From: Chiloscyllium plagiosum | Taxonomy: Eukaryota | DNA length: 42,516 bases | Direction of reading: 5' to 3' | Assembly (NCBI RefSeq): GCF_004010195.1 | Contig: NC_057746.1 | Span: 1,323,282 to 1,365,797 of the forward strand | Part shown: positions 1 to 34,430 of the stretch, one piece after another | How the letters are laid out: every line of letters starts with the position of its first letter | How positions within the stretch are numbered: the first letter of the stretch is position 1 | The notes under the pieces: generated by a model | Databases searched by the model: none | Told to the model about the DNA's origin: nothing | Seen by the model: the letters and a program-made list of their open reading frames with translations, nothing else | Program-made: the position numbers and the translations under genes

Positions 1-190
1 CCCTCAGAAAATGAACAGGAAATGACATCACCACAAACCCCAGGAACCCCATCCAGGACAAAGATATAAATAGAAAGCAGGAGACAACAGCTTCGCTTCA
101 CTTGGAGGTCACCACTGATGATGTTACCTAGCCAGGTAATGAAACGTCTGGATATCAAACCTACAGCTCAGCGAGCAAACCTACACCCTA
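1..190 (+). mobile_element. Penelope-like element (PLE) terminal repeat / 3' end, cut by the window start
   Basis: Contains CTGATGATGTTACCTAG...GAAACGTCTG, a hammerhead-bearing motif typical of PLE pseudo-LTRs. Family assigned from recall, not from a search. Confidence 0.65.
112..151 (+). ncRNA. Minimal type I hammerhead ribozyme motif
   Basis: Stem I CCA(112-114)/TGG(149-151); core CTGATGA 115-121 plus one extra T; stem II GTTACCT(123-129)/AGGTAAT(134-140) with loop AGCC; GAAA 141-144; palindromic ACGT mini stem III; predicted cleavage after GTC (C148). Confidence 0.75.
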
Positions 191-329
191 AGTCTATACT
201 ATATAGATAGCATGTCTCCTATATAGGATGCACAAAAGCTGAGTCAGTAGCCACTGATTTCTGTGGCACACTACGTTTACATCTTACCAATCAGAACATG
301 AGCCATTTTAGCCTATTCCTGTTAAGTGA

Positions 330-1100
330 TTGAGCAAAGATCTACCAAGTGGAAAATAATGTGGGAAAACATGAAATTATCTACTTTGACAGAAAAGAGA
401 TATATTATCTAAATGGTGCAAGATTGCAGAACTCTGATGTACGGAGGAATCTATGTGTTCTTGCAAATGAATCACAGAAGGTTAGTGTGCAACATGTAAT
501 TAGGAAACCCAATGCATTTTACTGTTTACAAACAAGGAGAATTGTACACAAAAGTAGGGAGGTTACAGAGGGCATTTAAGAGACTGCATCTGAGCACAAT
601 ATTGGTCTCTGTATTTAGGAAGAATGTAAATTTAGGAAGAAAGCAGTTCAGAGAACTTGCTGGACCAATATTTGGAATGGATGGGTTCCCCTTTAAGTAA
701 GTTTTAGCTAATCTAGGTTTGTGTTGATGGACTAAGAAGTAATTGAACTGAAACAACGAAGTTTCTGAGGGGTCTTGACAGGCTGGATGTTGAAACGATA
801 TTTCCTCTTGTGGAAGAATCAAGACCTAGTTTTAAAAATTAGAGTTAAAGTGCATTTAAAAACAGGCATTATCCATTAAAGACAAAATATGGTAATATGT
901 TTCCCCTCAGAGGATTGCAAGTCTTTGGAATTATTTTCCTGAAAATGTGGTGGAAGCAGAGTCCTTGACTGTAGCTAAGGCAGAGGAGAATAGATTCTTG
1001 ATAAGCAAGAGGGTGAAAAATTACCAGGACTTGGAACTGTGGAGTAATTTCATCAGCAACTATCTTATTCCTGCTTCTAACTCCTATGTTTCTATGTATA
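330..1100 (+). mobile_element. Heavily degraded CR1-type LINE 3' fragment
   Basis: Remnants such as NVGKHEIIYF / YYLNG and a CR1-like 3' tail; many stops and frameshifts. Confidence 0.55.
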
Positions 1101-1947
1101 ATGAGCATTACATTAAATATAATTCCAGGTTAGGTAATTTTAAAAAATACAGATTCTATTCATACCATCCTTAGCAGTTGTACTATGCAAAATTGTTTTA
1201 TAAAAATAGGCGGATAAACCTGTTAAATAGCTTTCAATGTGTATTATTTCAACAGACCTAATACACAGCTTAACAAAAATCAAATTTAGTGACATTAAAG
1301 TCGAGTTAAAGATGTTTTTAACCAGAAGATGTATTTGAAAGCTAATGGCTTTGTGCAATAAAGCAATAATTAGTATTTAAACCTGTCAAATTCTGAGAAA
1401 AGAAAACTATGTTCATTCTGTCCATTCCCATCCACTGCAGAACGTCGATACCCTGCTGAAAATAAAAGACAGGCTCTTTACGATTCTCCCCCCCCCCGCC
1501 AAACATCATGATGTAAATAAGCTCCTTAATGGGATGGTGACCTGTTCAGGGCACTATTGGGAAAATGCAGAAAGGCAGAGACTGGTCAGCATAGTGACCA
1601 TATTGTTCATCATTCCACTTCCATTCTAGAAGAATTTCCAGCTTGTTTTTCACCCTGAATTGTTTAGTTTCTGCCTGTAGATGTATTGTTTTGTTTTCTA
1701 AATTTCCAATGTATTGGAGCAAGGTTTCGCAACAGTCATGTGAATTTATTATTTTCACCAAATGTTAATGATTATAGGGTCATAGAGATTTACAGCACAG
1801 AATAAGGCCCTTCACCCTATTGTGTCCATGCTAGTCAAAAATAACCCCATAACTTTTCTAATCCCATTTCCAGCACTGGTCCATACTCTTGTAAGCCTCG
1901 GCATATGCTATGAGAGACTCATTCTTGTCCTGCCTCTTTCTTTACAG

Positions 1948-2093
1948 AACCTGAAGTACCTGAGGAACAGTCTGGTCCTGGGACAGTGATCTGTGTTCTG
2001 GGAATCATCCTGGGAATTATCAGTGCTGTTGTGGGGGTCATCTTACTGATTAAAGAGAGACAGCGGCTGCAGGCTCAGCAACACGGCATCTAG
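1948..2093 (+). CDS. MHC class II alpha chain (shark DAA/DBA-like), gene A: connecting peptide-TM-cytoplasmic exon (exon 4)
   Basis: Acceptor tctttctttacAG (1946-47), phase 1. Encodes (E)PEVPEEQSGPGTVICVLGIILGIISAVVGVILLIKERQRLQAQQHGI* with TAG at 2091-93 and a GTAAGT donor at 2096. Has the class II alpha CxxGxxxG TM motif and matches the exon spliced to the alpha-2 exon in gene B. Upstream exons lie before the window. Confidence 0.92.
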
Positions 2094-2394
2094 GGGTAAG
2101 TACAGGGTACAGTGTCTGTGTGTACAATTAGTGCTCATGGAAGAGTCAACATTCATTCAGTTATGCAACAAGAGAACTATGTGCAATTAGAATGAAGGCT
2201 CAATCAGACTATTCCTGACTGTTGGTTACTAAACCCTGGCAGCAATGTGCACAGATAAGGACAAGCCAAAAACAGATTTTATACCCATGTTAATACATGA
2301 CAGATGAACAGTTGGTACTTGGATAAAGTGCTGAGCTCAACCTTCAGAAGACCATAATAATGTTTGGCGGAGAGTCTAGACTCTCATAAAAGGA

Positions 2395-2673: not shown

Positions 2674-2679
2674 GTTTCC

Positions 2680-8595: not shown

Positions 8596-9035
8596 AGGAA
8601 TGCTTGATGCTGCTCCTGGCATGCCCTCCTGCACTCTCCATTGAATGAGGGTTGATCCCCTGGTTTGATGGTAATGGTTGACTGGGGGATATGCTGGACC
8701 ATGAGGTTACAGATTGTGTTGGACTGAATTCTGCTCTGATGATGCACCACAGCACTTCATGGATGCCCAGTTCTGAGTTGCTAGATCTGTTTGAAGTCTG
8801 TCCCATTTAGTATAGTGATAGTGCCACACAACACAATGAAGGTTATTCTCAACATGAAGGTGGGACTTTGTCTTCACAAGTGCTGTGGACAGATGCATCT
8901 GCAGCTGACAAATTGGGATGGATGATGTTAAGTATGTTTTTCCCTCTTGTTGGTTCCCTCACCACCTGCCGCAGACCCAGTCTAGCAGCTATGTCCTTTA
9001 GGACCTGACCAGATCCATTAGTAGTACTAGTGGTA

Positions 9036-9381
9036 CAGGTACACAATCTTTTATCCGAAATGCCAAAATCCGAAAAGCTCCGAAATCCAAAGATTTTGTC
9101 GTGAACAATTTTCTGCATAACAAGGTTGTTTGGCGTGTGAACATTTAACCCAACTCCACACCCAGTGGCCCCACATCACTCAGATGCGATGTAGTGGTGT
9201 GGCCCAGCATTGGGAGGTGTTAATTGTGTCTTAGTGCTCAAAATAGTCACAGCTGCGTCTGCTCTTCAGTAACCTTTCTAATATTTCACTGTGAAAATGT
9301 CATTTATTCTGAAGTCCGAAAAATTCCAAATTCTGAAAAAAAGCTGGTCCCGAGGGTTTCAGATAAAGGATTGTGTACCTG
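9036..9381. mobile_element. Non-autonomous Tc1/mariner-pogo (Tigger-like) MITE, 346 nt
   Basis: TIRs CAGGTACACAATCTTTTATCCGAAA / TTTCAGATAAAGGATTGTGTACCTG, with TA on both sides (9034-35, 9382-83). Confidence 0.85.
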
Positions 9382-9419
9382 TATTTTTGCTGAACTATTA
9401 ATGGAAAACTTCAGCCAAT

Positions 9420-9700
9420 GTTCTGGGAACCCGGATTCAAACCCCACCACGGCAGGTGGTGGAATTCAAATTCAATTTTAAAAAGAAATCCGGAATTAAG
9501 TATCTAATGATGACCATAAAACCATTGTCAATTGTTAGAAAAACCCACCTGGTTCACTAATGTCCTTCAGGGAAGGAAATCTGCCATCCTTACCTGATTT
9601 GCCCTACATGTGACTCCAGAGCACCAGCAATTGGGTTGACTCTCAACTGCCCTCTGAAACGGCTTAGCAAGCCAATTCAGTTGTACCAATCGCTACAAAG
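9420..9700 (+). mobile_element. SINE-like element with conserved central domain (second copy ~12820-13100)
   Basis: B-box-like GGATTCAAACCCC and core GGTTCACTAATGTCCTTCAGGGAAGGAAATCTGCC; a diverged homolog occurs at 27795-28180. Confidence 0.55.
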
Positions 9701-10959
9701 TCTCAAAGAAATTGAACTGGACGGATTGCCTGGCATCAGCCCAGGTGCTGGAAAAGAGCTTGCAAAGGCCTCCCTACTAACATCTGGGGAGTTGGTGCCA
9801 AAATTGTCATTCAACAGCATGATATAGTCATACTCACTGAATCCTACCTTACAGACAATGACCCAGACACTATCACCATCCCGAGATATGTCTTGTCTCA
9901 CTTGGCAAAAGTAGGTACTACAGATGCTGGGGATTAGAGTCAAGATTAGAATGGTGTTGGAAAAGCACAGCAAGTTTTTTCCTGCTCCTCTGATGCTGCC
10001 TGACCTGCTGTGCTTTTTCAGCACGACTCTAATGATTGCTGTCTCACTGTCAGGACAGACTCAGCAGAGGTGGTAGGATAGTGGGATACAGTCAGGAGGG
10101 AGTCGCTCTGGGAGCACAACATTGACTCCAGACCTCATGAAGTCTTGCGTCTTCAGGTTAAATATGGCAACATAACCTCCGGCTGATTACTATGTACTGT
10201 CCTGATGAATCTGTACTCCTCCATGTTGAACAACACTTGAAGGAAGCCGGCTGCAGAAATATCTGTCCATATTGGTATCGGTAAGAGCAACCACCGCACA
10301 CTCCTTGTAGAGTCAAAGTCCTGTCTTCACATTGAGAATACCCTCCATTGTGTTGTGTAGCATTTTCACTGTGCTAAATAGAACAGACTTCGAACAGATC
10401 TAGCAACTCAAGACTGGGCATGCATGAGACGCTGTGCGCCATCAACAGCAGCAGAACTGTAACCTCATGGCCCGGCACATTCCCCACTCAACCATTACCA
10501 TAAGCCGGGGGATCAACCCTGGTTCAATAGAGAGTTGAGGAGGGCATGCCAGGATCAGCACCAGATAGACCTGAAGATGAGGTGTCAACCTTGTGAACCA
10601 CTTGCATGTCAGGCAGCATGAGCTGCAAGAGACAGACAAAGTTAATTGATCCCACAACCAATGGATCAGATCTGAGTTCTGCAGTCCTGTCACATCCAGC
10701 CGTGAATTAGAGGTGGACAATTAAACAACTCACTCTTTTTTTCTTTACTCAGATTCAATTCTCGACTGAGGAGATTCTAATCTTCTGCTTATATTTTTTT
10801 CTCTCAGAAAATAAAACCCCATAGTACATATTGGCTATGGCCAGCCAGCTCAGAGTCAGTCCTCACGGGTGTAGAAGTTAATCTCCTGGTTATTTTTTTT
10901 TCTCCCCGATTAAACAACTCACTGGAAGAGGAGGCTTCTATTAATATCCCCATACTCAA

Positions 10960-11653
10960 TGTTATTAAGTTGTAGGCATGTACTATACCTTTAAGAAAGC
11001 ATGAATGCTGGCAAGCACCTAGTTTACTAGAAAATTGAAAGTATGTAACATTTGGCTGTGAAACAACTACCAGAGCTTGTGGTTGCTATGTTTTCAAAAG
11101 AATTTGAATTTAGCTAATCAGTTTTAATTTTGCCCCAAGATACTAAAACCCAATCAAATTTGAATTTTAATGTTTTGACCACATCAAACCAATTAGATGA
11201 TCCAATGTTTTAAGGTATAAAAACAGGCATTTTTGACAGTTAGCCATTGTCATCCAGACTGCCCGCAACCCTTCTCTCTGAAAGGTACCCTTTTTCACAT
11301 GAAAAATCTTTACAGCAGGAAACCTAAATAACACAGGGAAACAAAGGAAGATCAACACCAGAAACCAGGCAGCTGGTGTTAGGTTTTGAAAATTAAGCTG
11401 ACGTAAATTTAATAGGGGCTTTATTGGATCAGTATATTGCTATAGAGTGGGAGGTAGATACGTTATTAAGAGAAAGGAGCCTTACATTTGTAAATAATTA
11501 TTGTTTAATGTTCTCCTTTGGAGTTAAAGATTTTCTTTAAACAGTGGAATTTGGGAGTTCCCTGTCACTTATACTTTAACAGATTATGAGGCGAATTGAG
11601 CTTTTCTGGGTGTTTGGTTTAATTAGTAGAAGGTTTTACCCCGTATCATAATA
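10960..11653. mobile_element. Solo-LTR-like insertion in a LINE (second copy ~14978-15671)
   Basis: Starts TGTTAT, ends CCCCGTATCATAATA and interrupts LINE sequence; related to the element at 36974. Confidence 0.45.
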
Positions 11654-12436
11654 CTGAATGATGGGTCAGCATGCTGGAATGTATTGTAAGATCATTACTG
11701 TTCCTAACTCATGATGCAATCACCTGGCTCCACATAGGAAACTTAGCCTCCCTTGTCAAGAGTATCACTCCTTTTGGACAATAAACCTCATCTAAAAACC
11801 TCTTCCGCCTGACCTATTGGAGTGTTGAAGAGCTCTAGTCTTTTTTTTTCCTCATCATGTCTTTTTTTCTATTTCACGTTGGTTTTGGGAGATATTCTCG
11901 TACAGCTTGGGATTTTTAAAAGCTCCCAGGATTCATGTAATTGGGATTTGAGGGTAAGGATGGACAGATGGGTTTGGTGCTCACCTCATCCTCACTGGCC
12001 TTCCTAGTCATAGATTCACAGAGGCACATAGCACGAATTCATAGATCCTTCAGCCCAACTTGTCCATACCGACCAGGTTTTGCTAAACCGAACTCGTCCC
12101 ACCTGTAAGCATTTGACCCATATTTCTCTAAACATATTCTATCTATGTACCTGTCCAAATATCATTTAAATATTGTAATCGCACAGACCTTGGCCACTTC
12201 CTCTGGGCGGTCATTTCATATACACACCACCCTCTGTGTGAACAAGTTGCCCCTCAGGTCCCTTTTAAATTTTTTCCTTTGCACCCCAAACCTATGCCCT
12301 CTAGTTCTGGAAATTGGGAAGGATGATGTTAAGTATGTTTTTCCCTCTTGTTGGTTCCCTCACCACCTGCCGCAGACCCAGTCTAGCAGCTATGTCCTTT
12401 AGGACCTGACCAGATCCATTAGTAGTACTAGTGGTA

Positions 12437-12782
12437 CAGGTACACAATCTTTTATCCGAAATGCCAAAATCCGAAAAGCTCCGAAATCCAAAGATTTTGT
12501 CGTGAACAATTTTCTGCATAACAAGGTTGTTTGGCGTGTGAACATTTAACCCAACTCCACACCCAGTGGCCCCACATCACTCAGATGCGATGTAGTGGCG
12601 TGGCCCAGCACTGGGAGGCGTTAATTGTGTCTCAGTGCTCGAAATAGTCAGAGCTGCGTCTGCTCTTCGGTAACCTTTCTAATATTTCACTGTGAAAATG
12701 TCATTTATTCTGAAGTCCGAAAAATTCCAAATTCTGAAAAAAAGCTGGTCCCGAGGGTTTCAGATAAAGGATTGTGTACCTG
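12437..12782. mobile_element. Duplicate copy of the Tigger-like MITE
   Basis: Same TIRs and TA flanks as 9036-9381. Confidence 0.85.
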
Positions 12783-13162
12783 TATTATTGCTGAACTATT
12801 AATGGAAAACTTCAGCCAATGTTCTGGGAACCTGGATTCAAATCCCACCACAGCAGGTGGTGGAATTCAAATTCAATTTTAAAAAGAAATCTGGAATTAA
12901 GTATCTAATGATGACCATAAAACCATTGTCAATTGTTAGAAAAACCCACCTGGTTCACTAATGTCCTTCAGGGAAGGAAATCTGCCATCCTTACCTGATT
13001 TGCCCTACATGTGACTCCAGAGCACCAGCAATTGGGTTGACTCTCAACTGCCCTCTGAAACGGCTTAGCAAGCCAATTCAGTTGTACCAATCGCTACAAA
13101 GTCTCAAAGAAATTGAACTGGACGGATCGCCTGGCATCAGCCCAGGCACTGGAAAAGAGCTT

Positions 13163-13289
13163 CCTGAAGAAGGGCTTATGCCCGAAACGTCAATTCTCCT
13201 GTTCCTTGGATGCTGCCTGACCTGCTGCGCTTTTCCAGCAACACATTTTCAGCTCTGATCTCCAGTATCTGCAGTCCTCACTTTCTCCT
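13163..13289 (+). mobile_element. 127-nt PLE terminal-repeat insertion with hammerhead motif, present only in duplication copy B
   Basis: 15-nt TSD ACTGGAAAAGAGCTT (13148-62, 13290-304); empty site at 9748-9761; CTGAAGA-A-GGGC-TTAT-GCCC-GAAA-CG-TC at 13164-13191. Confidence 0.85.
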
Positions 13290-14009
13290 ACTGGAAAAGA
13301 GCTTGCAAAGGCCTCCCTACTAACTCCCTACTGGGAGTTGGTGCCAAAATTGTCATTCAACAGCATGATATAGTCATACTCACTGAATCCTACCTTACAG
13401 ACAATGACTCAGACACTATCACCATCCCCAGATATGTCTTGTCTCACTTGACGAAAGTAGGTACTCTAGATGCTGGGGATTAGAGTCAAGATCAGAGTGG
13501 TGCTGGAAATACACAGTAGGTCAGGCAGCATGTAAGAAATCAAAGGTTTTTTTCCTGCTCCTCAGATGCTGCCTGACCTGCTGTGCTTTTTCAGCACCAC
13601 TCTAATGATTGCTGTCTCAATGTCAGGACAGACCCAGCAGAGGTGGCGGGACAGTGGGATACAGTCAGGAGGGAGTCGCTCTGGGAGCAACAACATTGAC
13701 TCCAGACCTCATGAAGTCTTGCGTCTTCAGGTTAAATATGGCAACATAACCTCTGGCTGATTAATATGTACTGTCCTGATGAATCTGTACTCCTCCATGT
13801 TGAACAACACTTGAAGGAAGTGCTGAGGATAGCAAGGGCACAAAAAAACTCTGGGTGGGGAATTTCACTGCCCACCACCAAGAGTGGCTCAGCAGCTGTA
13901 CCACTGGTTGAGCTGGTCAGGTCCTAAAGGATACAGTTGTTAGACTGGGTCTGCGGCAGGTGGTGAGGGAACTAACAAGAGGGAAAAAACATCCTTGACC
14001 TCAACCTTG

Positions 14010-14228
14010 GAGAAAGTGAGGACTGCAGATGCTGGAGATCAGAGCTTAAAAATGTGTTGCTGGAAAAGCGCAGCAGGTCAGGCAGCATCCAAGGAGCGGG
14101 AGAATCGACGTTTCGGGCATAAGCCCTTCTTTAGGAATCATTCCTGAAGAAGTGCTTATGCCCGAAACGTCGATTCTCCTGCTCTCTTGATGCTGCCTGA
14201 CCTGTTGCGCTTTTCCAGCAACACATTT
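14010..14228. mobile_element. Fold-back (head-to-head) PLE terminal-repeat insertion with two hammerhead motifs
   Basis: 15-nt TSD TTGACCTCAACCTTG (13995-14009, 14229-43); palindrome apex GGAAT-C-ATTCC at 14139. Minus-strand core is mutated (CTAAAGA); plus-strand core CTGAAGA at 14144 has a stem II mismatch. Confidence 0.85.
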
Positions 14229-16000
14229 TTGACCTCAACCTTGCCAATGTGCCGGCTGCAGATGTATCTGTCCATATTGATATCGGTAAGAGCAACCACT
14301 GCATACTCCTTGTAGAGTCAAAGTCCTGTCTTCACATTGAGAATACCCTCCATTGTGTTGTGTGGCATTGTCACTGTGCTAAATAGAACAGACTTCGAAC
14401 AGATCTAGGAACTCAAGACTGGGCATCCATGAGACGCTGTGGGCCATCAACAGCAGCAGAACAGTAACCTCATGGCCCAGCACATTCCCCACTCAACCAT
14501 TACCATAAGCCGGGGGATCAACCCTGGTTCAATGGAGAGTTGAGGAGGGCATGCTAGGAGCAGCACCAGATATACCTGAAGATGAGGTGTCATCCTTGTG
14601 AAACCACCAAACAGAACGACTTGCATGTCAGGCAGCATGAGCAGCAAGAGACAGACAAAGTTAATTGATCCCACAACCAATGGATCAGATCGGAGCTCTG
14701 CAGTCCTGTCACATCCAGTCATGAATTAGAGGTGGACAATTAAACAACTCACTCTTTTTTTTTCACTCAGATTCAATTCTCGACTGAGGAGATTCTAATC
14801 TCCTGCTTATATTTTTTTCTCTCAGAAGATAAAAACCCACAGTATGCATTGGCTATGGCCAGCCAGCTCAGAGTCAGTCCTCACTGGAGTAGAAGTTAAT
14901 CTCCTGGTTATTTTTTTTTCTCCCTGATTAAACAACTTACTGGAAGAGAAGGCTTCCACAAATATCCACATACTCAATGTTATGAAGTTGTAGGCGTGTA
15001 CTATACCTTTAAGAAAGCGTGAATACTGGCAAGCACCTAGTATACTAGAAAATTGAAAGTATGTAACATTTGGCTGTGAAACAACTACCAGAACGTGGGG
15101 TTGCTATGTTTTCACAACAATTCGAATTTAGCTAATCAGTTTTAATTATGCCCCAAGATACTAAAACCCAATTGAATTTGAATTTAATGTTTTGACCACA
15201 TCAAACCAATTAGATGATCCAATGTTTTAGGGTATAAAAGCAGGCATTTTCGACAGTTAGCCATTGTCATCCAGACTGCCCGCAACCCTTCTCTCTGAAA
15301 CGTACTCTTTTTCACATGAAAAATCTTTACAGCAGAAGACCTAAGATAACACAGGGAAACAGAGGAAGTTCAACACCAGAAACCAGGCAGCTGCTGTTAG
15401 GTTTTGAAAATTAAGCTGACGTAAATTTAATAGGGGCTTTATTGGATCAGTATAGTGCTATAGAGTGGGAAATAGATACATTTTTAAGAGAAAGGAGCCT
15501 TACATTTGTAAATAATTATTGTTTAATGTTCTCCTTTGGAGTTAAAGATTTTCTTTAAATAGTGGAATTTGGGAGTTCTCTGTCACTTATACTTTAACAG
15601 ATTATGAAGCGAGTTGAGCTTTTCTGGGTGTACGATTTAATTAGCAGAAGGTTTTACCCCGTATCATAATACTGAATGATGGGTCAGCATGCTGGAATCA
15701 TGTTCCTAACTCATGATGCAATCACCTGGCTCCACATAGGAACCTTGTCAAGAGTATCACTCCTTTTGGACAATAAACCTCATCTAAAAACCTCTTCCGC
15801 CTGACCTATTGGAGTGTTGAAGAGCTCTAGTCTGGGACAATGACCTCATCATGTCTTTTTTTCTATTTCACGTTGGTTTTGGAAGACATTCTCACACAGC
15901 TTGGGATTTTTAAAAGCTCCCAGGATTCGTGTAATTGAGATTTGAGGGTGAGGATGGACAGATGGGTTTGGTGCTCACCTCATCCTCACTGGCCTTCCTA

Positions 16001-17400: not shown

Positions 17401-17449
17401 CACCTTCTTCCTGTTAGTTTGTAGGAACACCCTGTCCCTGAATGTCCGT

Positions 17450-17855: not shown

Positions 17856-18030
17856 TGCTTTGGAAAGCCTCCCACTTATGAGATGTCCCTTTACCTGCAA
17901 TCAACTTTTTAGAATTCCTGCCTTGGCCCAATTTAGAACTTTAACTTGTTGACCAGGCCTATTCATTTCCATGATGATTTACAATGTGGAGGTAATGTTG
18001 TTAGACTGGGGTGGACAAACTCAGTAGAAG

Positions 18031-18296
18031 TAAGTAGAGGATTTTAACCAGTTCTATTAGTTTTTAAATAGTCATAGTCAGAAGTCACATGACACCAGGT
18101 TGTAGTCCAACAGGTTTATTTGAAATCACAAGCTTTCAAAGTGCTGCCCCTTTGGCAAAACCAGGGACCTGACAAAAGGGCAGTGCTCTGAAAGCTTGTG
18201 ATTTCAAATAAACCTGCTGCACTATAACCTGGTGTCATGTGACTTCTGATTATGACTATTTAAAAACTAATAGAACTGCTTAAAATCCTCTACTTA
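18031..18296. repeat. 266-nt near-perfect palindrome: fold-back PLE-type terminus with decayed hammerhead plus inverted flank
   Basis: Arms of ~125 nt (TAAGTAGAGGATTTTAA... / ...TTAAAATCCTCTACTTA). Right arm begins CTGACAA-A-GGGGC-AGT-GCTCT-GAAA-GC-TT (~18169-18197). Confidence 0.85.
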
Positions 18297-18764
18297 TTAC
18301 AACCCTATTATTTTTACATGTGTCTGTGATTTCCCTGCGTGTTTGCTCCTCAATTTATGCTGACTATTGGGGAACCTATTGTACATTCCCATCAAATTGA
18401 TCACCCCCCTTCTTCTTTCTCAGTTCCACCCTAATAGTTTCACTGGATGATTCCAATAGGATTATCTTCTCTAAGTACTGCTGTGATGTTTTCCCAAATT
18501 AAAATTGCCACTCCCTCTCTATCTTGCCTCCCCTTCTAGACGGAGTTAACCCTGGTGCCCAAGAGATAAGGAGTTCCATTACTATCCAGGAGAGCACTGA
18601 ATTCCGCTGTGTTCATCAAATAGCACTGTGTAGAGGATAGAGTGTTGGGACAAGATGGTAAAAGTACAACTACGATGACACAAACAGCATTCTCGATTTG
18701 TACAAGTTTTAATGAATTCTGAGAGACACCATAAACAGCTCAATGAATTGACATCATTCATGTG

Positions 18765-22420: not shown

Positions 22421-22566
22421 CTAGATGCCGTGTTGCTGAGCTTGCAGCCGCTGTCTCTCTTTAATCAGTAAGATGACCCCTACAACAGCACTGATAATTC
22501 CCAGGATGATTCCCAGAACACAGATCACTGTCCAAGGACCAGACTGTTCCTCGGGTACTTCAGGTT
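22421..22566 (-). CDS. MHC class II alpha chain, gene B: connecting peptide-TM-cytoplasmic exon (exon 4)
   Basis: Acceptor AG at 22567-68. Encodes (E)PEVPEEQSGPWTVICVLGIILGIISAVVGVILLIKERQRLQAQQHGI*, with TAG at 22421-23 and a GTAAGT donor at 22418. Phase matches the exon at 29417 (G+AA = Glu). Confidence 0.93.
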
Positions 22567-23121
22567 CTACATTAGAGAGAGGCAGGGAAAGATTGAGTGT
22601 CTCATAGTGAAACTCCAGATATCAACAGAGTGGAGAGACTGTTAGAGGGTCTCACTCAAGCTGTTATGCATCAACAGCTTAAATGCCCACAGGCCGTGCT
22701 GTAATTATGTTAGTCATATACACAAGATTCCAAAGGCTAGGAATTACTGATGGCAATGCTATTTGTAAAGAAAAGATTTTACACTATAGAAAGAATAAGA
22801 TAGATTCATCAGGCAGTACCAGGACTGGGAAACTAGTTATGAGCAGAGATGTGAGATACTTATAAAAGCACAGAGTGGAATTACAGCTATTTGGCTCAGT
22901 ATCCCATTACTGAATCTTTGAAAGAATTATCCAACTAGTCTCAATCACCTGCTCTTCATTCATAGCCCAACACTGGCTTGGAATTCCAGCTGACCAGACA
23001 GTGTTATTCCAGCGAAGAAGGATGTTGTGCATGGGACCCTGTAGAATCTCCGTTGTAGCAGACTCTGAAGGAATTGCTGGAAGATTGATTTTCCACAAGG
23101 CAATTTCTCTATGTTGAGAAC

Positions 23122-24220
23122 CTGTATGTTCTGTGTGTGTGTGCCTGAGTGTGCGTGTTCTGCGTGCATATGTTTGTGTGCGTGCATGCGTACTACATGT
23201 GTGTGTGTGCTCCGTGTGTATGTGTGTGTGCGCATTCTGTGTATGTGTGGATGTGTGCGTGTGTTCTGTGTGTATCCTTTGTATGCGCATATGTATGTTC
23301 GGCGTGTGTACATTCTGTGCATGTGTGAGTATGTGTTGTGTGTATGCGTTTGTGTGTGTAGATACATGTGTGAGTCTGTGTTCAGTGCATATCTCTGTGT
23401 GTATATACATACACATTCTGTGTGTGTGGTCTGTGTATGTGAGTTCTGTGTACGTGTCTATATGTGTTGTGCACATTCTGTGTGCGAGAGAGTTCTGTGT
23501 GTTCTGTGCGTGCCTTTGTCAACTGTGTGTTTGTGTGTGTATTCTGTGAGTGTATGTGTTTGCTGCATATGTATACTGTGTGTGTGTTCTCGGTATGTGT
23601 GTGCACGCGTTTGTGTGTATGTGGGGAGTGTGATGTGTGTGCCTGTTCTCTTCATGTGTATGTGTTGTGTGTGTGTTTTGTGTGTGTGTGCATGTGTGTT
23701 CTGTGTGCCCTTGTGTTCTGTGTGTACACTTGTATGTATATGCATGTGTGCAAGTATTTATGTGTGCATGTGTGCATATGTATGCACATGCTTGCACATC
23801 TGTTTGTGTGTATGTGCTCACGTGTTTGTGTGTGCATATATGTACATGTGTTTGTGCGTGTGTACGTATCTAAGTGTATGTGCATGTGTACATGTGTTTG
23901 TGTTTACGTGTGCATGCATGTTTGTGTGCGCATGTGTGTATATTTTTCTGTGTGTACACATGTTTGTGTGCAAGTACAAGTGATTGTATACATATGTGGT
24001 GTGCTTGTGTGTGCATGTGTCTCCATGTCTGTGTACATATACAAGTATTTGTGTGCACATATGTATGTTTGTGTGTACCTATGAGTGTTTGTGTGTACAT
24101 GTGCTTGTGTGTCCATGTATGTACATATGTGTTTGTATGCATGTATGCATATTTCTCTGTGCAACCATGTGTGTGTATGTATTTGTGTGTGTATGTGTAT
24201 GTGTAAGCATATGTACACAT
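23122..24220. repeat. ~1.1-kb degenerate (TG)n / alternating purine-pyrimidine repeat in intron 3 of gene B
   Basis: TGTG/TATG/TGCA mosaic; source of the many Cys/Val and His/Thr pseudo-ORFs. Confidence 0.95.
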
Positions 24221-24849: not shown

Positions 24850-26170
24850 ACTCTTTGACGCCACGACTACTTACAGTACTAGCTAATAGACTGAATCACA
24901 TGACAGTCATCACATCTGCTCAAGGCTCATAACGTCCTTGACATAGTTGTAACAATATGCCCTGACAGAGAGCTTTGGGCATGAGTACTTGTTTACCTTT
25001 GAAAATGATGCTCCTTGAGACACTGAGCTCATCTCTGTAAAGGCCAGAAATATCTGAGAGTGTTTGGAACCTCTAACAATGTCAGGCCACCCTTCAATTA
25101 TAACATTAATAATGATAGTGCGGTGCCTTCAGTTATGGGGTGTTTGCTGTTTTGAATTGGCATTGTTGAACAAAATGCAATAGATTAAGAAGATCTTCCA
25201 CCTGAATATCATGTTGTCAATGTTTAATTCCAGTGGAATGCTGATATTGGGTTTGGGTTTGGCAATCTGCTTACAGAATCAAAGGTATTTGTATGGGGAT
25301 GCATATGATGGATGGTGTCATTGTATTCCAAGTCTTCACACTTATATTTAAGCTTTTCCTGTATGTGAACACCACACTATCTGGGAGGGTCAACTGATGG
25401 ATTTTTATGCTCTTTGAGGTGCAATATAGTGTCACTGTTGAAACTTCCTATGACATTAAACCTATTGTTATACAATTGTTGTAAATCCTGGACTGAGTCA
25501 ATAAGAATATTCTCTGTCTTTTCTGCTACCATGGGTAGCTTGGTGATCTGTGAGTAGTCACAGTTTTGAGAGCTGTATATACGGTAGTTCTGCCATTGCT
25601 GGTCGGTTTGTGTCCATCGGATAAAATATGAGATTTCCATGTTTAATTACTGTAGCTACATTACACTGTTAATGCAGAAATGAAAGAGATGGGAAACCCA
25701 TTGTATACAGGTAATGTCGTGGCTTTCAGTAGTACGATAGCGTTTTGATGGTCCTGGTTAATGTCCTTCACTAGGTTCAGTCAATGTCAGTCTGTGGTTG
25801 AATGTGTGCTTGCCAGTTTTCTTTGTGAAAATTATGTTGGTTGTGGAAAAACTTCCAGCAGGTTAACATCATGTGTTACATTCAGAATGTTGAAAGCCTG
25901 TTCACCGTCTGGTTGGATGTTGTTCTACTCTGGGTCTCACATCTTTTGCTGTGAGCTTGGTGTATGACCTGCATTTACACAAGTCTTTTCTGCATAACTT
26001 GCTGCTGTAACTGCATTCTGTTTGAGTGTGTCCTGTTGTAGGCTGCAGCTTTATATATAGATTTTTGAATAAGGACATTCTTTAGTACACAGACTTGGAC
26101 ATCAGGACAACTAAGCAGTGGCTGCTATAACGCAGACATGACACACAGTTTATTTACTTTGCATGTCCTG
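24850..26170 (-). mobile_element. Possible decayed Gypsy-type LTR retrotransposon gag-pol fragment
   Basis: DLQQLYNNRFNVIGSFNSDTILHLKEHKNPSVDPPR resembles the protease-RT linker; no intact catalytic motif; boundaries approximate. Confidence 0.4.
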
Positions 26171-26199
26171 GCTACAACATTAACTGTATCTAATGCCTG

Positions 26200-26570
26200 C
26201 AGATTTTGCAGAGATCATTCCCTCTGGGATACCCAGACCATTCCACAACCACCAACACCACCACCCTTTCCGATGTAACTGTAGAACGTGCAACACCTGT
26301 CCCTCTACCTCCTCCCTGCCCAAGGGCCTAAACAGTCTTTCCAGGTGAAGCAGCATTTCACCTGTACCTCCTCCAATCTTGTGTATTATTTTCGCTGCAC
26401 CCAACGCGGCCTACTCTACATTGGAGAGACCAAATGCAGACTGGGTGGCCGCATTGCGGAACACCTCCGATCTGTGCACAAACAGGACCCTGACCTTCCT
26501 ACAGCTGGGCATTTTCACACAGTGTCCTGCTCGCATGCCTACATATCTGTCCTCAGCATGCTGCAGTGGG
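26200..26570 (+). mobile_element. Penelope-like (Neptune-type) element fragment: Cys-rich linker and GIY-YIG endonuclease
   Basis: CNCRTCNTC, a frameshift, then FTCTSSNLVYYFRCTQRGLLYIGETKCRLGGRIAEHLRSV (VY...YIGET..RL..R..EH). Confidence 0.88.
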
Positions 26571-27720: not shown

Positions 27721-27794
27721 ACTGCAGGGGCTACAGTCTTCAACCTTGTCAATCCACTTACTTGCCACACTCTCAGTCAAACTCTGCTGACACT

Positions 27795-28180: not shown

Positions 28181-29416
28181 CAAGGTGTGACTGCTTTCAT
28201 TATTAAAGTATTCAGGTAACTTTCTCCTTCTATGATGCTTCAGGTTCTCTGTAACTTGACTGCAGCTTATTAACTCAAAGTCAAACTTTTTCTAGCTGCA
28301 GACACTAACTGGACAAGCTCCCACCTACTAAAGTCTCAACACTTCATCTCTCCAATAGATGCTAATTAATTAATATCTTCCTTGTTTATAATTATAAATG
28401 CTACGAATCACTACTAATATTTACTTTTGTGAGTATTACCTTATTACTCTGAATAAAGCTTTACAACTATTAATAAATTTTGAGTTTCTAGAAGTTAAAG
28501 GAGGAAAATACTAACCAACCAAATCACCTGTTTCCTTATGAGAGTACTCAGAACTTGGCTGAGAAGGAAAATAAGGAGCATAAGGTGGAGGAGAAAGGAC
28601 AACTGCAATCTATGGCCAAATTCTTCACAACCTCCAAGCTCTCAGTGTTTGGAGAAAGAAAGAGAAGAAACAGCGGCAAAATAAATTAAAGACAAAGTAA
28701 GCAAAAAGAAAGGGTGGAAAAGAAGAGGGACAGACAATTGGAGACAAAGAAGCATTTATATTATAGGTTAATATGGGAATTACCAAACAAAATAGTTTAT
28801 ATGCATTTAAAACATTTCCAAAGCATCTTAAATTGACTAGTTTTCCATTGAAAATTTAAAACAGGGTTTGGTGTGAAATTCAGTTTCTCAGAATTAGGTA
28901 AATCTTGGAGCTCTGTTTTCCCAATCACCGAGATTTCAATCTTGCTGAAGATAATCACCAGTGAAAATAATCTAAACTACAGAAGTCAGAGTGTGTGGAA
29001 CATGCAGAACAAAGACAAGTAAATCTCAAAATGTAAATGGATATATATTGCAATTGGTATGATTTTGGTTTGCGTGGTGTTGTTTTAAATCTATTTTTTG
29101 CAGCATCAATACTGGGTAAGTTCAGCTGACTGGAAGTATGTTGCTGAAGACTATACGATGGACTTGGTTTTTCTCATTCTGTGAAGGCCAATCTTTGACT
29201 TAATTACATTGTTGTGAGTTTTTTGTTGGAATCTAGACTGGGTGTATAATCCACTAAACAGCCAAAGTAAATACTAATTACTTCATATTGCTTGGGATTC
29301 TACTGTTTTGGTTAAAGAGAGGCCTTTTAAGAAAAAGCCGGGGAGTTTGGGTATTACACACAGTTTATTAGACACTAGGATGAATTCAGCCCCTACACAA
29401 TGAAATCAATACTGAC

Positions 29417-29698
29417 CCCAGAATACAGTGGTTAGATCCTGCAGCCCCTCATGTTTCACATGACAGGAATACATGTCTCCAGGATTTGGGATGAAGCTCA
29501 GGTATGTGAATCTCTGATAGGAATAATCCTGTTTCATATAGAATTCCGTAATGTTGACTCCGCCAGTCACTGGCTCACTGTTCCTCTTCCATGTCATGGT
29601 AATGTGTGGAGGGAAGAATCCATCAGCCAGACAGATCAATGTGTTGGGCTGTCCCCATTCGACAGGCTCTTCAGGATACATGGCAATCTGAGGGGCAG
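29417..29698 (-). CDS. MHC class II alpha chain, gene B: alpha-2 Ig C1-set domain exon (exon 3)
   Basis: 282 nt, phase 1/1; acceptor TCTCTCTCCCACAG, donor GTCAGT. Encodes APQIAMYPEEPVEWGQPNTLICLADGFFPPHITMTWKRNSEPVTGGVNITEFYMKQDYSYQRFTYLSFIPNPGDMYSCHVKHEGLQDLTTVFW, with the class II alpha G-PNTLIC, FFPP, W-RN and YSCHVxH motifs and an NIT sequon. No stops. Confidence 0.96.
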
Positions 29699-31007
29699 CT
29701 GTGGGAGAGAGACAGGACACAGCAATAGGTACAATTAACCAATGTGTAAAATATATAATGAGCAGCTACTGTATAACTAATTCCGAATCATTAGGAGACT
29801 ATCAGTACACATCAGAAATTAGACTATTTTTATGTAGTGGATGGGAAGTTAACTAAAGGAAGAATTTATATAGTATATCCTTGGGTCCTTTACATACAAT
29901 ATGTTGTGTACATAGCAAGATCCAGAAAACCGCCAATGAAATGAAATCAATATCATTTGTATCAGATGGTCTTAGTTGGAACTAAATCTTGACTGAGATG
30001 CTGAGAAAATGGTCTGCTCTTTCTATAGGGACATCATGGATCCTTTGATAACCACCTCTGATGACAGATATGACCTCAGTTTAACATTACAATTAAAAGA
30101 GAGAACCTTTTTTTAAATCTCAAGATGTAACATTTTAAATCTAACATTGTAAAGTTCGCATTTATTGTCTATCCCTAGTTAAGTCTTGCCCTGACTTGCC
30201 TTACCAAAATGTAGCACCTCACATTTATCTAAATTAAACTCCATCTGCCACTCCTCAGCCCATTGTTCTTCAAGGTCTGATCAAGTTGTTGTTTTGGGAG
30301 GGGTGGGAGGGGCATGGGGTGCACATTCAAAAACAATGAAGAATTTCCTGGTAGGGCCATTTGTTAATCATCAACTTAACTGAAGTCACAGGACCAAGTT
30401 CCCAAAGATATTCGTGAAATCATGACAAAGCTTCGCTCAGCTGCTGCCACCAAAATTCGGAAGATATATCATTTCAGCTGGCTTCAGTCAGCCACAGCTA
30501 AACGAAGGTTTGGAATATCGAATTCCAAGCGATGGTAAGAAATTGTGAAAGTGTCTGAAACTTGTATGAAGGACTATACAGATAGTAGATAAGTCCCTTG
30601 CTAAATTTTCTAACATGAGGTTTAATGCTTTCACACTAACGAATTCAAGCATAGAAGCCTAGAAGAACAAGAACCATTATGCGCACGATGGGGAGTACGC
30701 CATGGATATTGGATGGTGAAGAAGGAAAATTAAATCCATACCATAGGCAATGGCAGGATGTTAAGAAATAGTTTTCCATTTATAGAAACCATTGCGTTAC
30801 ACAGAATAAAGCATATAATTCAATGCCATAAACCAGATTACCAGCCTCAGTAAATGGCATCACGAGATGTGGTCCTAGACCTCTGTGTACACTCGGATTC
30901 ATTGTTTATCCTGTGACACCAGAACATCCTGCTTAAGCCTGTGAACTTAAATGGGGTCAAATGATATGGAATATACAAAGAGTAGCAGTACGGTAATCTC
31001 TTAGGGA

Positions 31008-31560
31008 CATGTACAGCATGGAAACAGACCCTTCAGTCCAACTTGTCCAGGCTGACCAGATATCCTAAGTTAATCTAGTCCCATATACCAGCACTTGGCC
31101 CATATCCCTCTAAACCTTTCCATTCATATACCCATCCAGATGCCTTTTAAATGTTGCAATTGTACCAGCCTCCACCACATCCTCTGGCAGCTCATTGCAT
31201 ACGCACACCACCCTTTGCGTGTAAAAGTTGCCCCTTAGATCTCTTTTATATCTTTCCCCTCTCATCCTAAGCCTATGCCCTCTAGTTCTGGACTCCTCCA
31301 CCCCAGGGAAAAGACTTTGCCTATTTATCCTATCCATGCCCCTCATGATTTTATAAACCTTTATAAGATCACCCCTCAGCCTCCGACGCTCCAGGGAAAA
31401 CAGCCCCAGCCTGTTCAACCTCTCTTTTGTAAACTTCTATAAGGTCACCCCTCAGCCTCCGACGCTCCAGGGAAAACAGCCCCAGCCTATTCAACCTCTC
31501 TCTATGACTCAAATCCTCCAACCTTGGCAACATCCTTGTAAATCTTATCTGAACCATTTC
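31008..31560 (-). mobile_element. CR1/HER1-like 3' fragment with an internal ~76-nt tandem duplication
   Basis: [19 protein letters not shown] occurs twice (~31350-31425 and 31426-31501). Confidence 0.9.
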
Positions 31561-33496
31561 AAGTTGCACACCATCCACCTGTATCATAACTATTTTGTTC
31601 TGAGCAGGTTTAGAATGTATGGGTTCTGTTCAATATGTTTTCATATGATCAGCCTGGATTAATATGGAGCATGTGCTCAAGCAGCAAACAATGCATCACT
31701 AAATTTAGATATACATATTTTACCTGTACGATTACCAAGATTAATGAAAGATATTAATTATTCAAAAAATTGTTTCACTTTGACACAGAATAAATCCTAA
31801 AATTCAGATAAAGTCCCTGAAAAAGGGGATGATTCTTCATGTTGAGATATTATGATGACTACTGAAATCTACCTATGGATAAGAATTGCTTCATATATTC
31901 AAATAATTGTCTATTTAATTATTCCTACTAATTTATTTGGTGCAAGTAAGTCAGAAAACAAAAGAAAAAAATCAACTTAAAAGGAATTGAACAGGAATCA
32001 ATTCTCAAGTAAACACTTGCCACAGGTCACACTAACCCCCCAGTCCTGACCCCAGGTGATCAGAATATTGTTAAAATATTTTGCTGCCTAACATTTGAAA
32101 GAAGGTGCTTAGATTTAACTCACTCAAATGGGGTTAGTGAGTTTGTTCCTACCTGGAACAGACATCATAGAAAAGGGCAAAATGAAAACCCTGCTAAAAG
32201 TGGCAGTGAGTCCATTACACCAGAATCTTTGAGACATACGTAAAAAATTATTCCAAATGAATTTGGGGCAATGATTGACAAGGTTGGCTATCACACTTTC
32301 TGACCAAGGAAGCAACGTTTGCACAGGTAGTTTCTAAAATGCATCTTAATCAAGCCAAGACATAAAAACAGATTGCAAACCAGACAGAAGCAGCGGTGTA
32401 TTTATGAAGATTAAGCCTTGAATTGTGATAAAGCACATGTCCCATCAAAATGTAAATATGTTTTATTGGAAAACTGACTGCAAGGGACTTTATAAGTTGG
32501 AAAATTGCTGGGGAAGACAAAAGAGAATGGATTATTTCCTGGATGGGTCAAATCATATTTTATACAATGATTGCACAATATAATTGATTAATGCCTTTTG
32601 AAAACTATGACTTCAATATATAATAAATTAATTCATCCCTAAAATAGTATTGAAAACATCAAAAACCTGAATTACAAGTGAAAGGGGTGGGAGGGTGGCA
32701 AAGCAGGGGTATTGAGGAGAGAGACAGAATAGGGAGGAGAGAAATATTGGAGAAAAAGAGGTGGCGGTAAAGGTCTGGAGGAAAATGAGTGGGGGAGAAG
32801 GATTAGGGAAAAAGGACGGGTGGATAACAGCAATGGTGGGGGAAATAAATAGTGGGAAAGGTGTGTGGAAAGGAGTGGTGGGGAAAGATGTGGCACGGTA
32901 AGTAATGAGGGAAAAGGAGTTGGGGAACAGAATGCAGTGGATCTGAGTTGGATTCAGTTGAAATATTAACTTGGAAATAAAGTTACAATCTGAATATTTT
33001 GGTGCTACATCAGTGAAGACTTGATTTTCTGGGAGTAATATAAGCAGCTTTTTTCATTATTACGTTCCTTCCTCAACCAGTCAAATCTGCAATAGTTTCA
33101 AATCTGTTCCCATACTGTGTTTCTCCTGCTCTATCATTCACAACAGATTTTAAAGTTAATCAGTGATACATTCATTTACATAGGCCTCAGACTGTACCTG
33201 GTTTAGTATTAGTAATATGTAAGTCACACGTCTTAGTTAACAAATAATAGTTAGTTTTGTATGCAATAAGCTTAAACACTGGTGCTTAGATTTGTAACAA
33301 AGGTGTGAACTGTAGTGACTGGAACAAGGTCAGCCAGGTGGACTTCACTGACTTCATTGAGTTCAATGAGTTCCTGATTGAGGCTGTTACCTGGTTCAGA
33401 GAGCCCTGGCTGACAGATAGAAACAGGAGTGACAAGGTTCTGCTCTCTCATGGATTTGGCTCCGTGCTTGCTGCGTCAGTGTTATGTACTGTGCAC

Positions 33497-33919
33497 TAGG
33501 AGAAAGTGAGTACTGCAGATGCTGGAGATCAGAGCTGAAAAATGTGTTGCTGGAAAAGCGCAGCAGGCCAGGCAGCATACAAGGAGCAGGAGAATCGACG
33601 TTTCGGGCATAAGCCCTTCTTCAGGAAAAAATAGGGAGGAGTGACTTGGGGGAGGGGTGTTGGAAATGCGATAGGTGGAAGGAGGTTATGGTGAGGGTGA
33701 TAGGCCGGAGTGGGGGTGGGGGCGGAGAGGTCGGGAAGAAGATTGCAGGTTAGGAAGGTGGTGCTGAGTCCGAGGGTTGAGATGAGATAAGGTGGGGGGA
33801 GGGGAAATGAGGAAGCTGGAGAAATCTGCATCCATCGATTGCAGATCTGCGAAACGTCGATTCTCCTGCTCATTTGATGCTGCCTGACGTGCTGCGCTTT
33901 TCCAGCAATACATTTTTCA
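33497..33919 (-). mobile_element. PLE 3' fragment with an inverted partial terminal repeat
   Basis: 16-nt TSD GTTATGTACTGTGCAC (33481-96, 33920-35); same terminal repeat as 13163 and 14010; inverted piece 33850-33919 begins at CGAAACGTC. Confidence 0.85.
33594..33627 (-). ncRNA. Minimal hammerhead ribozyme motif, core intact
   Basis: Minus strand reads TTC-CTGAAGA-A-GGGC-TTAT-GCCC-GAAA-CG-TC-GAT; stem I is only ~2 bp by eye. Confidence 0.65.
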
Positions 33920-34186
33920 GTTATGTACTGTGCACATGTAAATAAAGGGTGACTTGGTGACATGATACCACCCTACGTGGAGTTATTTCATATACTATGT
34001 AAATATATGTAACTAACCTTCCTGAAAATTAACACGCACAGTCTAGGAAAAACAAAAAATAGAAGATCTCTCTGGATTGTTAACTGTTAAGTACTTTGGC
34101 TAGAGGACAGTTAAACTCAAGAGAAAATGATTATTCACTGAATGTCCCAAAATGGTGTTCTATGGCTGAACTCTCATTTAGCACAA

Positions 34187-34430
34187 ATAAAAACAGAAAT
34201 TGCTGGAAAAGCTAAGCGGGTATTGGCAGCATCGGTGAAGAGAAATCAGAGTTAATGTTTCAGGTCCAGTGACCCTTCCTGCAGAACTTGCTCAGTTTTG
34301 AGGAAGGGTCACTGGAAGTGAAACATTAACTCTGATTTCTCTTCACAGATGCTGCCAGGCCTGCTGAGGTTTTCCAGCAATTTCTGTTTTTATCTCTGAT
34401 TTACGGTATCCACAGACTTTTGGTTTTATT
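34187..34430. mobile_element. Fold-back PLE-type terminal repeat of another family, with decayed hammerheads
   Basis: 15-nt TSD TCTCATTTAGCACAA (34172-86, 34431-45); arms ~100 nt; TGAGGA-A-GGGTC-ACTG-GA...-GAAA-CA-TT on the plus arm and a variant on the minus arm. Confidence 0.8.

What the first reader, a model, noticed from the sequence alone, without database searches (positions are those of the whole stretch)
112..34430. Dispersed minimal hammerhead ribozymes from about four Penelope-like families around MHC class II alpha genes
Seen: the hammerhead grammar CUGANGA+1 nt / stem II / GAAA / 2-nt spacer / UH recurs at 115, 13164, 14107-14172 (two copies), 18169, 33594 and ~34250-34330 (two copies). 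Four unrelated stem II sequences are used (GTTACCT/AGGTAAT, GGGC/GCCC, GGGGC/GCTCT, GGGTC/GACCT), i.e. structure is kept while sequence changes. Established: PLE terminal repeats carry minimal type I hammerheads with a palindromic stem III thought to cleave as dimers, and a PLE GIY-YIG fragment is present at 26288. Inference: several ribozyme-bearing PLE families colonised this locus, and copies on the pre-mRNA strand could affect MHC transcripts.
Basis: partly seen in the sequence, partly recalled or inferred. Interest (0 to 1): 0.7.

Follow-up and report, generated by a model that had tools for sequence, protein, structure and literature searches.

The report
Shark Penelope stubs starting at hammerheads
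These tiny ribozyme motifs are the ends of four very common Penelope-type jumping-gene families in a shark-type genome, no denser beside the immune (MHC) genes than elsewhere and mostly broken here, but the shared start point of many short sister copies, often behind an extra G, likely records the capped front of the element's RNA and so how these elements copy themselves.

Summary
All eight sites are remnants of minimal type I hammerheads in Penelope-like (PLE) termini, but only three keep the full grammar (+115, +13164, -33624; shuffles give 0.08). Exact patterns for the four families match 99,788 places genome-wide (reversed controls 0), so three here is ordinary (P = 0.11). Each family lies behind a GIY-YIG gene end elsewhere: one Poseidon-type and three Neptune-type, with one family resting on 1 of 25 copies. 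The local GIY-YIG fragment has no hammerhead behind it, and its relatives carry a fifth family. Four window elements have 15-16 bp target duplications, one with an empty paralogous site. An effect on MHC transcripts is unlikely: each gene shows one sense-strand intact copy and no compatible dimer partner. Genome-wide, short copies start 4-8 bases before the hammerhead, about 30 bases after a TATA-like box, usually behind G (60 of 100; 71 of 100). At the cleavage site copies are rare and show no G excess (32 G, 61 A). They are likely cDNAs that ran off the capped 5' end of uncut RNA. The PLE-hammerhead link is published. I found the cap reading in no paper, but this scan noted it before on other DNA.

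The parts
1..191 (+). 3' end (pLTR) of a Poseidon-type PLE, family A. Intact minimal hammerhead: stem I 112-114/149-151, core 115-121, stem II 123-140, GAAA-CG-UC 141-148. On the sense strand of the inferred alpha2-TM intron of MHC class II alpha gene 1.
   Evidence: 2,033 exact copies; 23 of 32 copies have Poseidon ORF sequence upstream on the same strand
1948..2090 (+). TM/cytoplasmic exon of MHC class II alpha gene 1; an alpha2 exon on the same strand lies about 36 kb upstream, outside the window
13163..13289 (+). Solo 127-bp family B stub (hammerhead core intact, stem I lost, long tail) between 15-bp target duplications at 13148 and 13290; the paralogous site near 9746 is empty
14010..14228 (.). 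Head-to-head family B palindrome; both arms start at ATTC, one base apart; both hammerheads broken; 15-bp target duplication (13995, 14229); folds into one long hairpin
18003..18303 (.). Decayed family C palindrome; + arm core CTGACAA at 18169, minus arm core lost; arms include mirrored non-PLE sequence; no clear target duplication; left edge approximate
22424..22566 (-). TM/cytoplasmic exon of MHC class II alpha gene 2
26123..26566 (+). Broken Neptune-type PLE fragment (Zn-finger linker and GIY-YIG), followed by a LINE RT-like fragment (read from its translation); no hammerhead downstream
29417..29698 (-). alpha2 (C1-set) exon of MHC class II alpha gene 2
33497..33919 (-). Family B insertion: long tail, intact hammerhead (core starts 33624), about 200 bp of 3' untranslated sequence with the promoter stretch deleted, and an inverted partner (33850-33919) cut inside the hammerhead; 16-bp target duplication (33481, 33920)
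34187..34430 (.). Old family D palindrome; both arms start at AGTT, 5 bases apart; both hammerheads broken; 15-bp target duplication (34172, 34431)

Best explanation
The sites are scattered, mostly decayed insertion products of one Poseidon-type and three Neptune-type Penelope-like retrotransposon families whose terminal repeat carries a minimal hammerhead, and the short and palindromic ones are likely cDNAs that ran off the capped 5' end of the uncut element RNA. Shown: families, copy numbers, linkage to GIY-YIG gene ends, target duplications, two 3' ends about 36 bases apart, and 5' ends piled 4-8 bases before CUGA behind an excess of G. Inferred: (1) a Pol II promoter in the pLTR starts transcription at or just before stem I, so the hammerhead is the first 40 or so bases of the RNA; (2) RT starts internally 90-130 bases downstream, as shown for the anole element, and on the 5' pLTR copy it reaches the cap, which templates an extra C; (3) extension of both cut target strands joins two such cDNAs head to head. 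After insertion the copies decay, lack a dimer partner, and are predicted not to cleave MHC transcripts.
For: Copy numbers: 87,506 (B), 9,415 (C), 2,033 (A), 834 (D); reversed controls 0. ORF linkage: A 23 of 32 upstream-sense against 1 of 32 downstream-sense; B 13 of 132 against 3-5 in control positions; D 1 of 25; C hammerhead downstream of the endonuclease end in 23 of 25 loci. Target duplications in 4 of 5 window elements tested, plus an empty site, and in 8 of 14 solo stubs. 5' ends in loci not chosen by the family's own pattern: B 13 of 41 at -4/-3, 2 of 41 at the cleavage site; C 5 of 34 at -8, all five behind G. Base before the end, first 100 listed, counted by eye, templated C excluded by the pattern: B 60 G/24 A/16 T of 5,155 matches; C 71/10/19 of 1,386. 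Controls: cleavage site 93 matches, 32 G/61 A; position -36, 11 matches, 4 G/7 A; Fisher P 1e-6 and 3e-13. In two solo stubs the G lies outside the target duplication (L258, L261). TATA-like boxes sit 29-32 bases before the end in C, D and E (read). Internal RT start, both-strand extension and use of uncut RNA: PMC11167929.
Against: No transcription start was mapped. Many G's can also be read as microhomology with the target or the inverted partner (3 solo stubs share the G with the duplication). Family D shows only a weak excess: 45 G/28 A/27 T, or 36 G after collapsing ten copies with one context, P = 0.011. Family B has TTTATCT, not a canonical TATA, at that spacing. Family A copies are mostly long (40 of 50), so it does not show the pile-up. 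The D. virilis element is TATA-less and starts upstream of an intron (PMC2377424). R2 RT adds non-templated G and T without a cap (PMC13000458, one passage). The patterns at -4, +28 and -36 cover different subfamily sets, so their totals compare only roughly. One predicted stem I covariation in family C was not found (39/1/3/0).
Confidence: 0.72

Rival explanations
1. The 5' pile-up is a structural or enzymatic stop: RT stalls, or the endonuclease resolves the intermediate, at the front of the folded hammerhead, and the G is terminal addition or microhomology, not a cap copy.
For: The boundary coincides with stem I in B and D. The anole endonuclease prefers ATT near the ORF-pLTR junction and family B starts at ATTC. 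Non-templated G and T occur at R2 junctions.
Against: In C the boundary is 5 bases outside stem I. D and C have no ATT there. No G excess at two other positions. The spacing to the TATA-like box is constant while the spacing to CUGA is not.
Confidence: 0.17
2. Sense-strand copies act as cis-cleaving ribozymes that modulate MHC class II alpha pre-mRNA, and the locus is enriched for them.
For: +115 is intact with a 3-bp stem I on the sense strand of gene 1, and -33624 is intact with a 2-bp stem I on the strand of gene 2. Protein can activate a PLE hammerhead.
Against: No enrichment: 7.2 per 100 kb in the window against 4.3 in 17 arbitrary stretches and 3.2 in 15 flanks; P = 0.11. A single minimal motif did not cleave in vitro (PMC4209133). 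No compatible same-strand partner in the window or the five flanking loci listed, though runs of N hide part. Palindromes fold into long duplexes. No excess conservation of catalytic positions: 9.2% against 4.4% mismatch in the tail, 11 of 61 intact; this test is biased because the tail was the anchor.
Confidence: 0.04
3. The short palindromes and stubs are a separate non-autonomous family (retrozyme or MITE-like) made from self-cleaved or circular RNA.
For: Very high copy number, short length and target duplications. Tandem retrozymes derived from pLTRs are reported in one chondrichthyan (bioRxiv 10.64898/2026.07.22.740005).
Against: Ends are not at the cleavage site. The window copies are not tandem. 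Palindrome centres differ from copy to copy. The same hammerheads continue into ORF-bearing elements.
Confidence: 0.07

Closest known systems
[quoted passage not shown]
   Same: Same grammar: extra base after the core, G10.1-C11.1 pair, palindromic positions 15.2-16.2, short stem I. Mostly single dispersed copies, several families per genome, and opposite-strand pairs close together.
   Different: Sharks are not named in the parts read. The counts there are about 4,000 (coelacanth) and 9,000 (Xenopus); four exact patterns give 99,788 here. Stem II is only 4-5 bp in B-D. No fixed 5' boundary is described in the parts read.
Poseidon element of Anolis carolinensis, PAc (Frangieh et al. 2024, PMC11167929; parts 1-2 of 4 read)
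   Same: Two 3' ends forming a tail; hammerhead upstream of the RT start; uncut RNA used as template; no RNA-seq ends at the cleavage site; both target strands extended.
   Different: No cap run-off products or short stubs are described in the parts read. Three of the four families here are Neptune-type.
EN+ PLE insertions with inverted 5' pLTR, tail and target duplication (Arkhipova et al. 2013, PMC3846280; Craig et al. 2021, PMC8557442; passages read)
   Same: Head-to-head inverted ends, optional 30-40 bp tail, target duplications, solo pLTRs, TATA and Inr-like motifs in the pLTR.
   Different: Those passages explain palindromes by self-priming on an antisense template and solo pLTRs by recombination or deletion. 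Here solos carry their own target duplications and start at a fixed point behind G.
Non-LTR retrozymes (Li et al. 2026 bioRxiv 10.64898/2026.07.22.740005; part 1 of 5 and passages read)
   Same: Non-coding, hammerhead-bearing derivatives of pLTRs, present in a chondrichthyan.
   Different: Defined as tandem repeats with a hammerhead in each unit; the window's elements are single or inverted.

Membership tests
Minimal type I hammerhead of PLEs | Core CUGANGA, one extra base, stem II closed by G-C, GAAA, UH | tested here: met
   Met at +115, +13164, -33624 and in the families genome-wide; not met at the other 5 of 8 window sites
Minimal type I hammerhead of PLEs | Palindromic positions 15.1-16.1 allowing a dimer stem III | tested here: met
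   CG in 201 and GC in 58 of 309 descriptor hits, 42 CA/TG, 8 other (loci were mostly chosen by patterns that fix these bases)
Minimal type I hammerhead of PLEs | Stem I of 2-5 bp with compensatory changes | tested here: met
   CCA/UGG 24 against UCA/UGA 3 in A; U-A 13 against C-G 3 in D/E; not seen within C; most B copies have a U.U mismatch; absent at +13164
Minimal type I hammerhead of PLEs | Self-cleavage as dimer or with protein help | not testable with these tools
   Needs an in vitro assay. The MFE homodimer of the +115 motif was not a hammerhead fold, which decides nothing.
EN+ Penelope-like element (Poseidon, Neptune) | Hammerhead-bearing pLTR downstream of a GIY-YIG gene end on the same strand | tested here: met
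   A 23 of 32, B 13 of 132, D 1 of 25; C 23 of 25. D is weak.
EN+ Penelope-like element (Poseidon, Neptune) | Clade assignment by Zn-finger linker and endonuclease type | tested here: inconclusive
   CxxC linker motifs read in L055 and L293, absent in L101; criterion from PMC8557442; no RT tree was built
EN+ Penelope-like element (Poseidon, Neptune) | Inverted 5' partner, 30-40 bp optional tail, target duplication | tested here: met
EN+ Penelope-like element (Poseidon, Neptune) | Intact RT-EN ORF in partial tandem (active copy) | not tested
   No full-length intact copy was sought; the longest frame read was 497 aa
Non-LTR retrozyme | Tandem units each with a hammerhead | tested here: not met
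   Window copies are solo or inverted
Non-LTR retrozyme | Unit ends at the cleavage site; circular RNA | tested here: not met
   Genomic 5' ends at the cleavage site are rare (2 of 41; 93 matches); circular RNA itself was not testable
Host-domesticated intronic ribozyme | Conservation of the core above neutral sequence, or across species at the orthologous site | tested here: inconclusive
   No excess core conservation in 61 copies (biased test); orthologous sites in other species were not available

The most novel reading that the evidence does not exclude
In shark PLEs the hammerhead is the first 40 bases of the capped mRNA, so cleavage (as a dimer or with the element's protein) would decap it and act as a self-limiting switch. 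Internal priming on the same leader mass-produces strong-stop-like cDNAs that integrate alone or head to head. This would explain the inverted pLTR and has left about 100,000 core-intact ribozyme motifs in one genome, over ten times the counts in the 2014 survey.
Probability: 0.35. Interest if true: 0.7.

Novelty: new member of a known kind. Interest (0 to 1): 0.4.

Why it matters
As flagged (ribozymes near MHC genes) the finding is ordinary: any 40-kb stretch of this genome holds about one intact copy. Its value is as a footprint of PLE replication, which is still poorly understood. If the fixed start and the extra G mark the cap, genome sequence alone maps the transcription start, puts the hammerhead at the mRNA's front, and gives a directly testable origin for solo and inverted pLTRs. 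It also warns that short shark palindromes with target duplications are retrotransposon products, not MITEs.

Tried and rejected
Rfam scan: no hammerhead family among 28 matches; the mirror-symmetric elements score only as weak miRNA hairpins. An ungapped alignment gave a peak of family C ends at the cleavage site (6 of 34 at +29); gapped alignment removed it, so it was an indel artefact. Family C first showed no ORF link (0 of 40) because the queries were too distant; a family-specific query found it. A splice acceptor as the 5' boundary was rejected: the AG lies inside the kept sequence in D and E and is absent in B. The alpha1 exons were not found in the window or 15 flanking loci, which contain runs of N, so placing -33624 in an intron of gene 2 is an inference. 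RNA: no holder on record as RNA was listed. Single-cell poly(A) reads of run X19 (about 2 in 100 read) laid 2,364 reads on a family B terminus, with loose ends at both tail ends and at -4 and no place where many molecules begin or end; X20 laid none. On 29200-34600 the alpha2 exon had 1-2-fold depth and most unique intron sequence none. These lays are no evidence on start, cleavage or MHC effect. Pfam missed the endonuclease in L293 and L055; those were read by motif and tblastn. The paper on dimer cleavage by Lunse et al. was not held, so only its title was seen. Supplements were not read; those of PMC4209133 and the 2026 preprint may list shark motifs.
Full report
Observation. A descriptor scan of both strands found the exact hammerhead grammar at +115, +13164 and -33624, against a mean of 0.08 in 100 dinucleotide shuffles. 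Allowing one core change added -14134 and +18169, against 1.13 by chance. The remaining listed sites are recognisable family members with broken cores or stems. So 3 of the 8 sites are core-intact, and +13164 has lost stem I. Rfam reported no hammerhead family.

Setting. The C1-set exon at 29417-29698 has its closest named relatives among carpet-shark class II alpha chains (92% to the best hit), so the host is inferred to be a carpet shark. Two class II alpha genes point toward each other. Gene 1 has its TM exon at 1948-2090 (+) and an alpha2 exon about 36 kb upstream. Gene 2 has exons at 29698-29417 and 22566-22424 (-). The elements at 13163, 14010 and 18003 lie between the two stop codons. 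+115 is on gene 1's strand and -33624 on gene 2's strand.

Background. Exact family patterns match 87,506 (B, GGGC/GCCC), 9,415 (C, GGRGC/GCTCY), 2,033 (A) and 834 (D, GGGTC/GACCY) places in 3.56 Gb, with 0 for the reversed patterns. That predicts 1.16 in this window; three are seen (P = 0.11). A general descriptor gave 7 in 163,615 bases of 17 arbitrarily placed stretches, 4 in 126,518 bases of flanks and 3 in 41,461 bases here. The locus is not special.

Link to PLE genes. Family A has Poseidon-type ORF sequence within 1 kb upstream on the same strand in 23 of 32 copies, against 1 of 32 downstream. B has Neptune-type RT or endonuclease upstream in 13 of 132 copies (most copies are too short), against 3-5 in control positions. 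D has 1 of 25. For C, 23 of 25 loci found with an endonuclease-end query carry the C hammerhead 170-1,000 bases downstream, and L293 reads as a CxxxC/YIGET endonuclease. The window's own GIY-YIG fragment has no hammerhead behind it, and 8 of its 30 best loci carry a fifth family, E. The Poseidon and Neptune labels rest on motifs, not on a tree.

Structure. Across families the stems differ in sequence but pair. Two-sided changes appear in stem I (A: CCA/UGG 24, UCA/UGA 3; D/E: U-A 13, C-G 3), in stem II (GGGUC/GACCY in D, GAGUC/GACUC in E) and in the dimer palindrome (ACGU, AGCU). A predicted change in C was not found, and most B copies carry a U.U mismatch in stem I. These are a few events between master elements, counted on pattern-selected loci. 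Among 61 B copies from loci not chosen by a B pattern, 11 were intact and catalytic positions were no better kept than the tail (9.2% against 4.4%). The tail was the anchor and truncated copies add core mismatches, so this shows only no sign of host selection.

Anatomy. Four of five window elements tested have 15-16 bp target duplications, and the 13163-13289 stub has an empty paralogous site in the local tandem duplication, so it is a true later insertion. Eight of 14 solo stubs fetched elsewhere have duplications, with 3' ends at about +93 or +130 from CUGA, the PLE tail signature. The 14010-14228 palindrome folds into one hairpin of -170 kcal/mol, and only one arm can be sense in any transcript, so head-to-head pairs cannot form the hammerhead dimer.

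5' ends. Anchored on the hammerhead, 65 of 95 B1 copies end within 12 bases upstream of CUGA, 4 end at 13-29 and 26 run on. Anchored on the tail, in loci not chosen by the family's pattern, 13 of 41 B1 copies end at -4 or -3 and 2 at the cleavage site; 5 of 34 C copies end at -8, each behind G. Genome-wide, 5,155 copies have a non-templated base before ATTC; the first 100 listed show 60 G, 24 A, 16 T. For C there are 1,386, with 71 G, 10 A, 19 T. For D there are 1,020, with 45 G, 28 A, 27 T (36 G after collapsing ten copies with one context). These were counted by eye and include copies with inverted partners and some long copies with C>T changes. Among 40 C copies judged by eye to be solo, 26 had G. 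Controls: 93 copies with a purine before the cleavage site show 32 G and 61 A, and 11 at -36 show 4 G and 7 A; background G:A is 0.70. Long copies show TATAAAT 32 bases before the end in C, TATAAA 29 in D, CATAAAT 31 in E and TTTATCT 31-32 in B (read). TATA-to-start spacing, the initiator consensus and cap copying by RT as an extra G are recalled, not taken from a call.

Mechanism. I commit to cap run-off (0.72). The pLTR promoter would start at or just before stem I. RT would start internally in the tail and, on the leader copy, stop at the cap. One cDNA gives a solo stub and two give a palindrome. Internal initiation, extension of both strands, protein-assisted cleavage and use of uncut RNA are shown for the anole element (PMC11167929, parts 1-2 of 4). 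The start site and the cap step are inferred here. RNA lays could not test them.

MHC. A single minimal motif did not cleave in vitro and dimers cleaved weakly (PMC4209133). No second intact ACGU-type hammerhead was seen on the sense strand of either gene in the window or the five flanking loci listed, although runs of N hide part of this. An effect on MHC transcripts is therefore unlikely (0.04).

Literature. Seen: PMC4209133 and PMC11167929, parts 1-2 of 4; bioRxiv 10.64898/2026.07.22.740005, part 1 of 5 and passages; passages of PMC3846280, PMC8557442, PMC6155905, PMC6765202, PMC2377424 and PMC13000458; no supplements. Searches for shark PLE hammerheads and for a cap, extra-G or strong-stop reading of PLE ends listed no paper whose title or abstract start reports either; the library lacks most subscription journals. 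The scan's own notes, consulted after my reading was formed, hold the same palindrome and cap readings for other windows of this and other genomes. They are not independent support.

Verdict. Real, known in kind and ordinary at this locus; worth attention only for the replication footprint. New member of a known kind; interest 0.4.

Noticed in passing
window 9906-10040 and 13451-13612: Paralogous small palindromes made only of PLE tail sequence, with no hammerhead left; they predate the local duplication.
   Followed up: partly
window about 8900-16300: Local tandem duplication with 3.4-4.0 kb spacing, 92-99% identical in the blocks listed; the 13163 stub is present in one copy only.
   Followed up: partly
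window about 39300-42516: Array of a 38-bp satellite, more than 50 overlapping units listed.
   Followed up: no
window 18024-18303: The mirrored arms of the family C palindrome include about 45 bases of non-PLE sequence inside the tail, and no target duplication was found; unexplained.
   Followed up: partly
window 1948-2090 and 22424-22566: Two class II alpha genes in convergent orientation with 96% identical TM exon regions; no alpha1 exon was found for either in the window or 15 flanking loci.
   Followed up: partly
L002, L003, L008, L012, L016, L017, L023, L025: A fifth hammerhead family (AGCU stem I, GAGUC/GACUC stem II) lies a few hundred bases behind relatives of the window's GIY-YIG fragment.
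   Followed up: partly
G000:C16:42817564-42817927 and G000:C19:5625202-5625265: Short tandem arrays (47- and 29-base spacing) of family B tail sequence starting at the cleavage position; possible satellite seeds.
   Followed up: no
G000, listing (for example C1:17780685, C1:22201795, C2:24826947): Ten family D stubs share one upstream context, suggesting a stub carried inside another amplified repeat.
   Followed up: no
window 23100-24220: Degenerate (TG)n-rich tract in the alpha2-TM intron of gene 2; source of the spurious mir-297-type Rfam hits.
   Followed up: no
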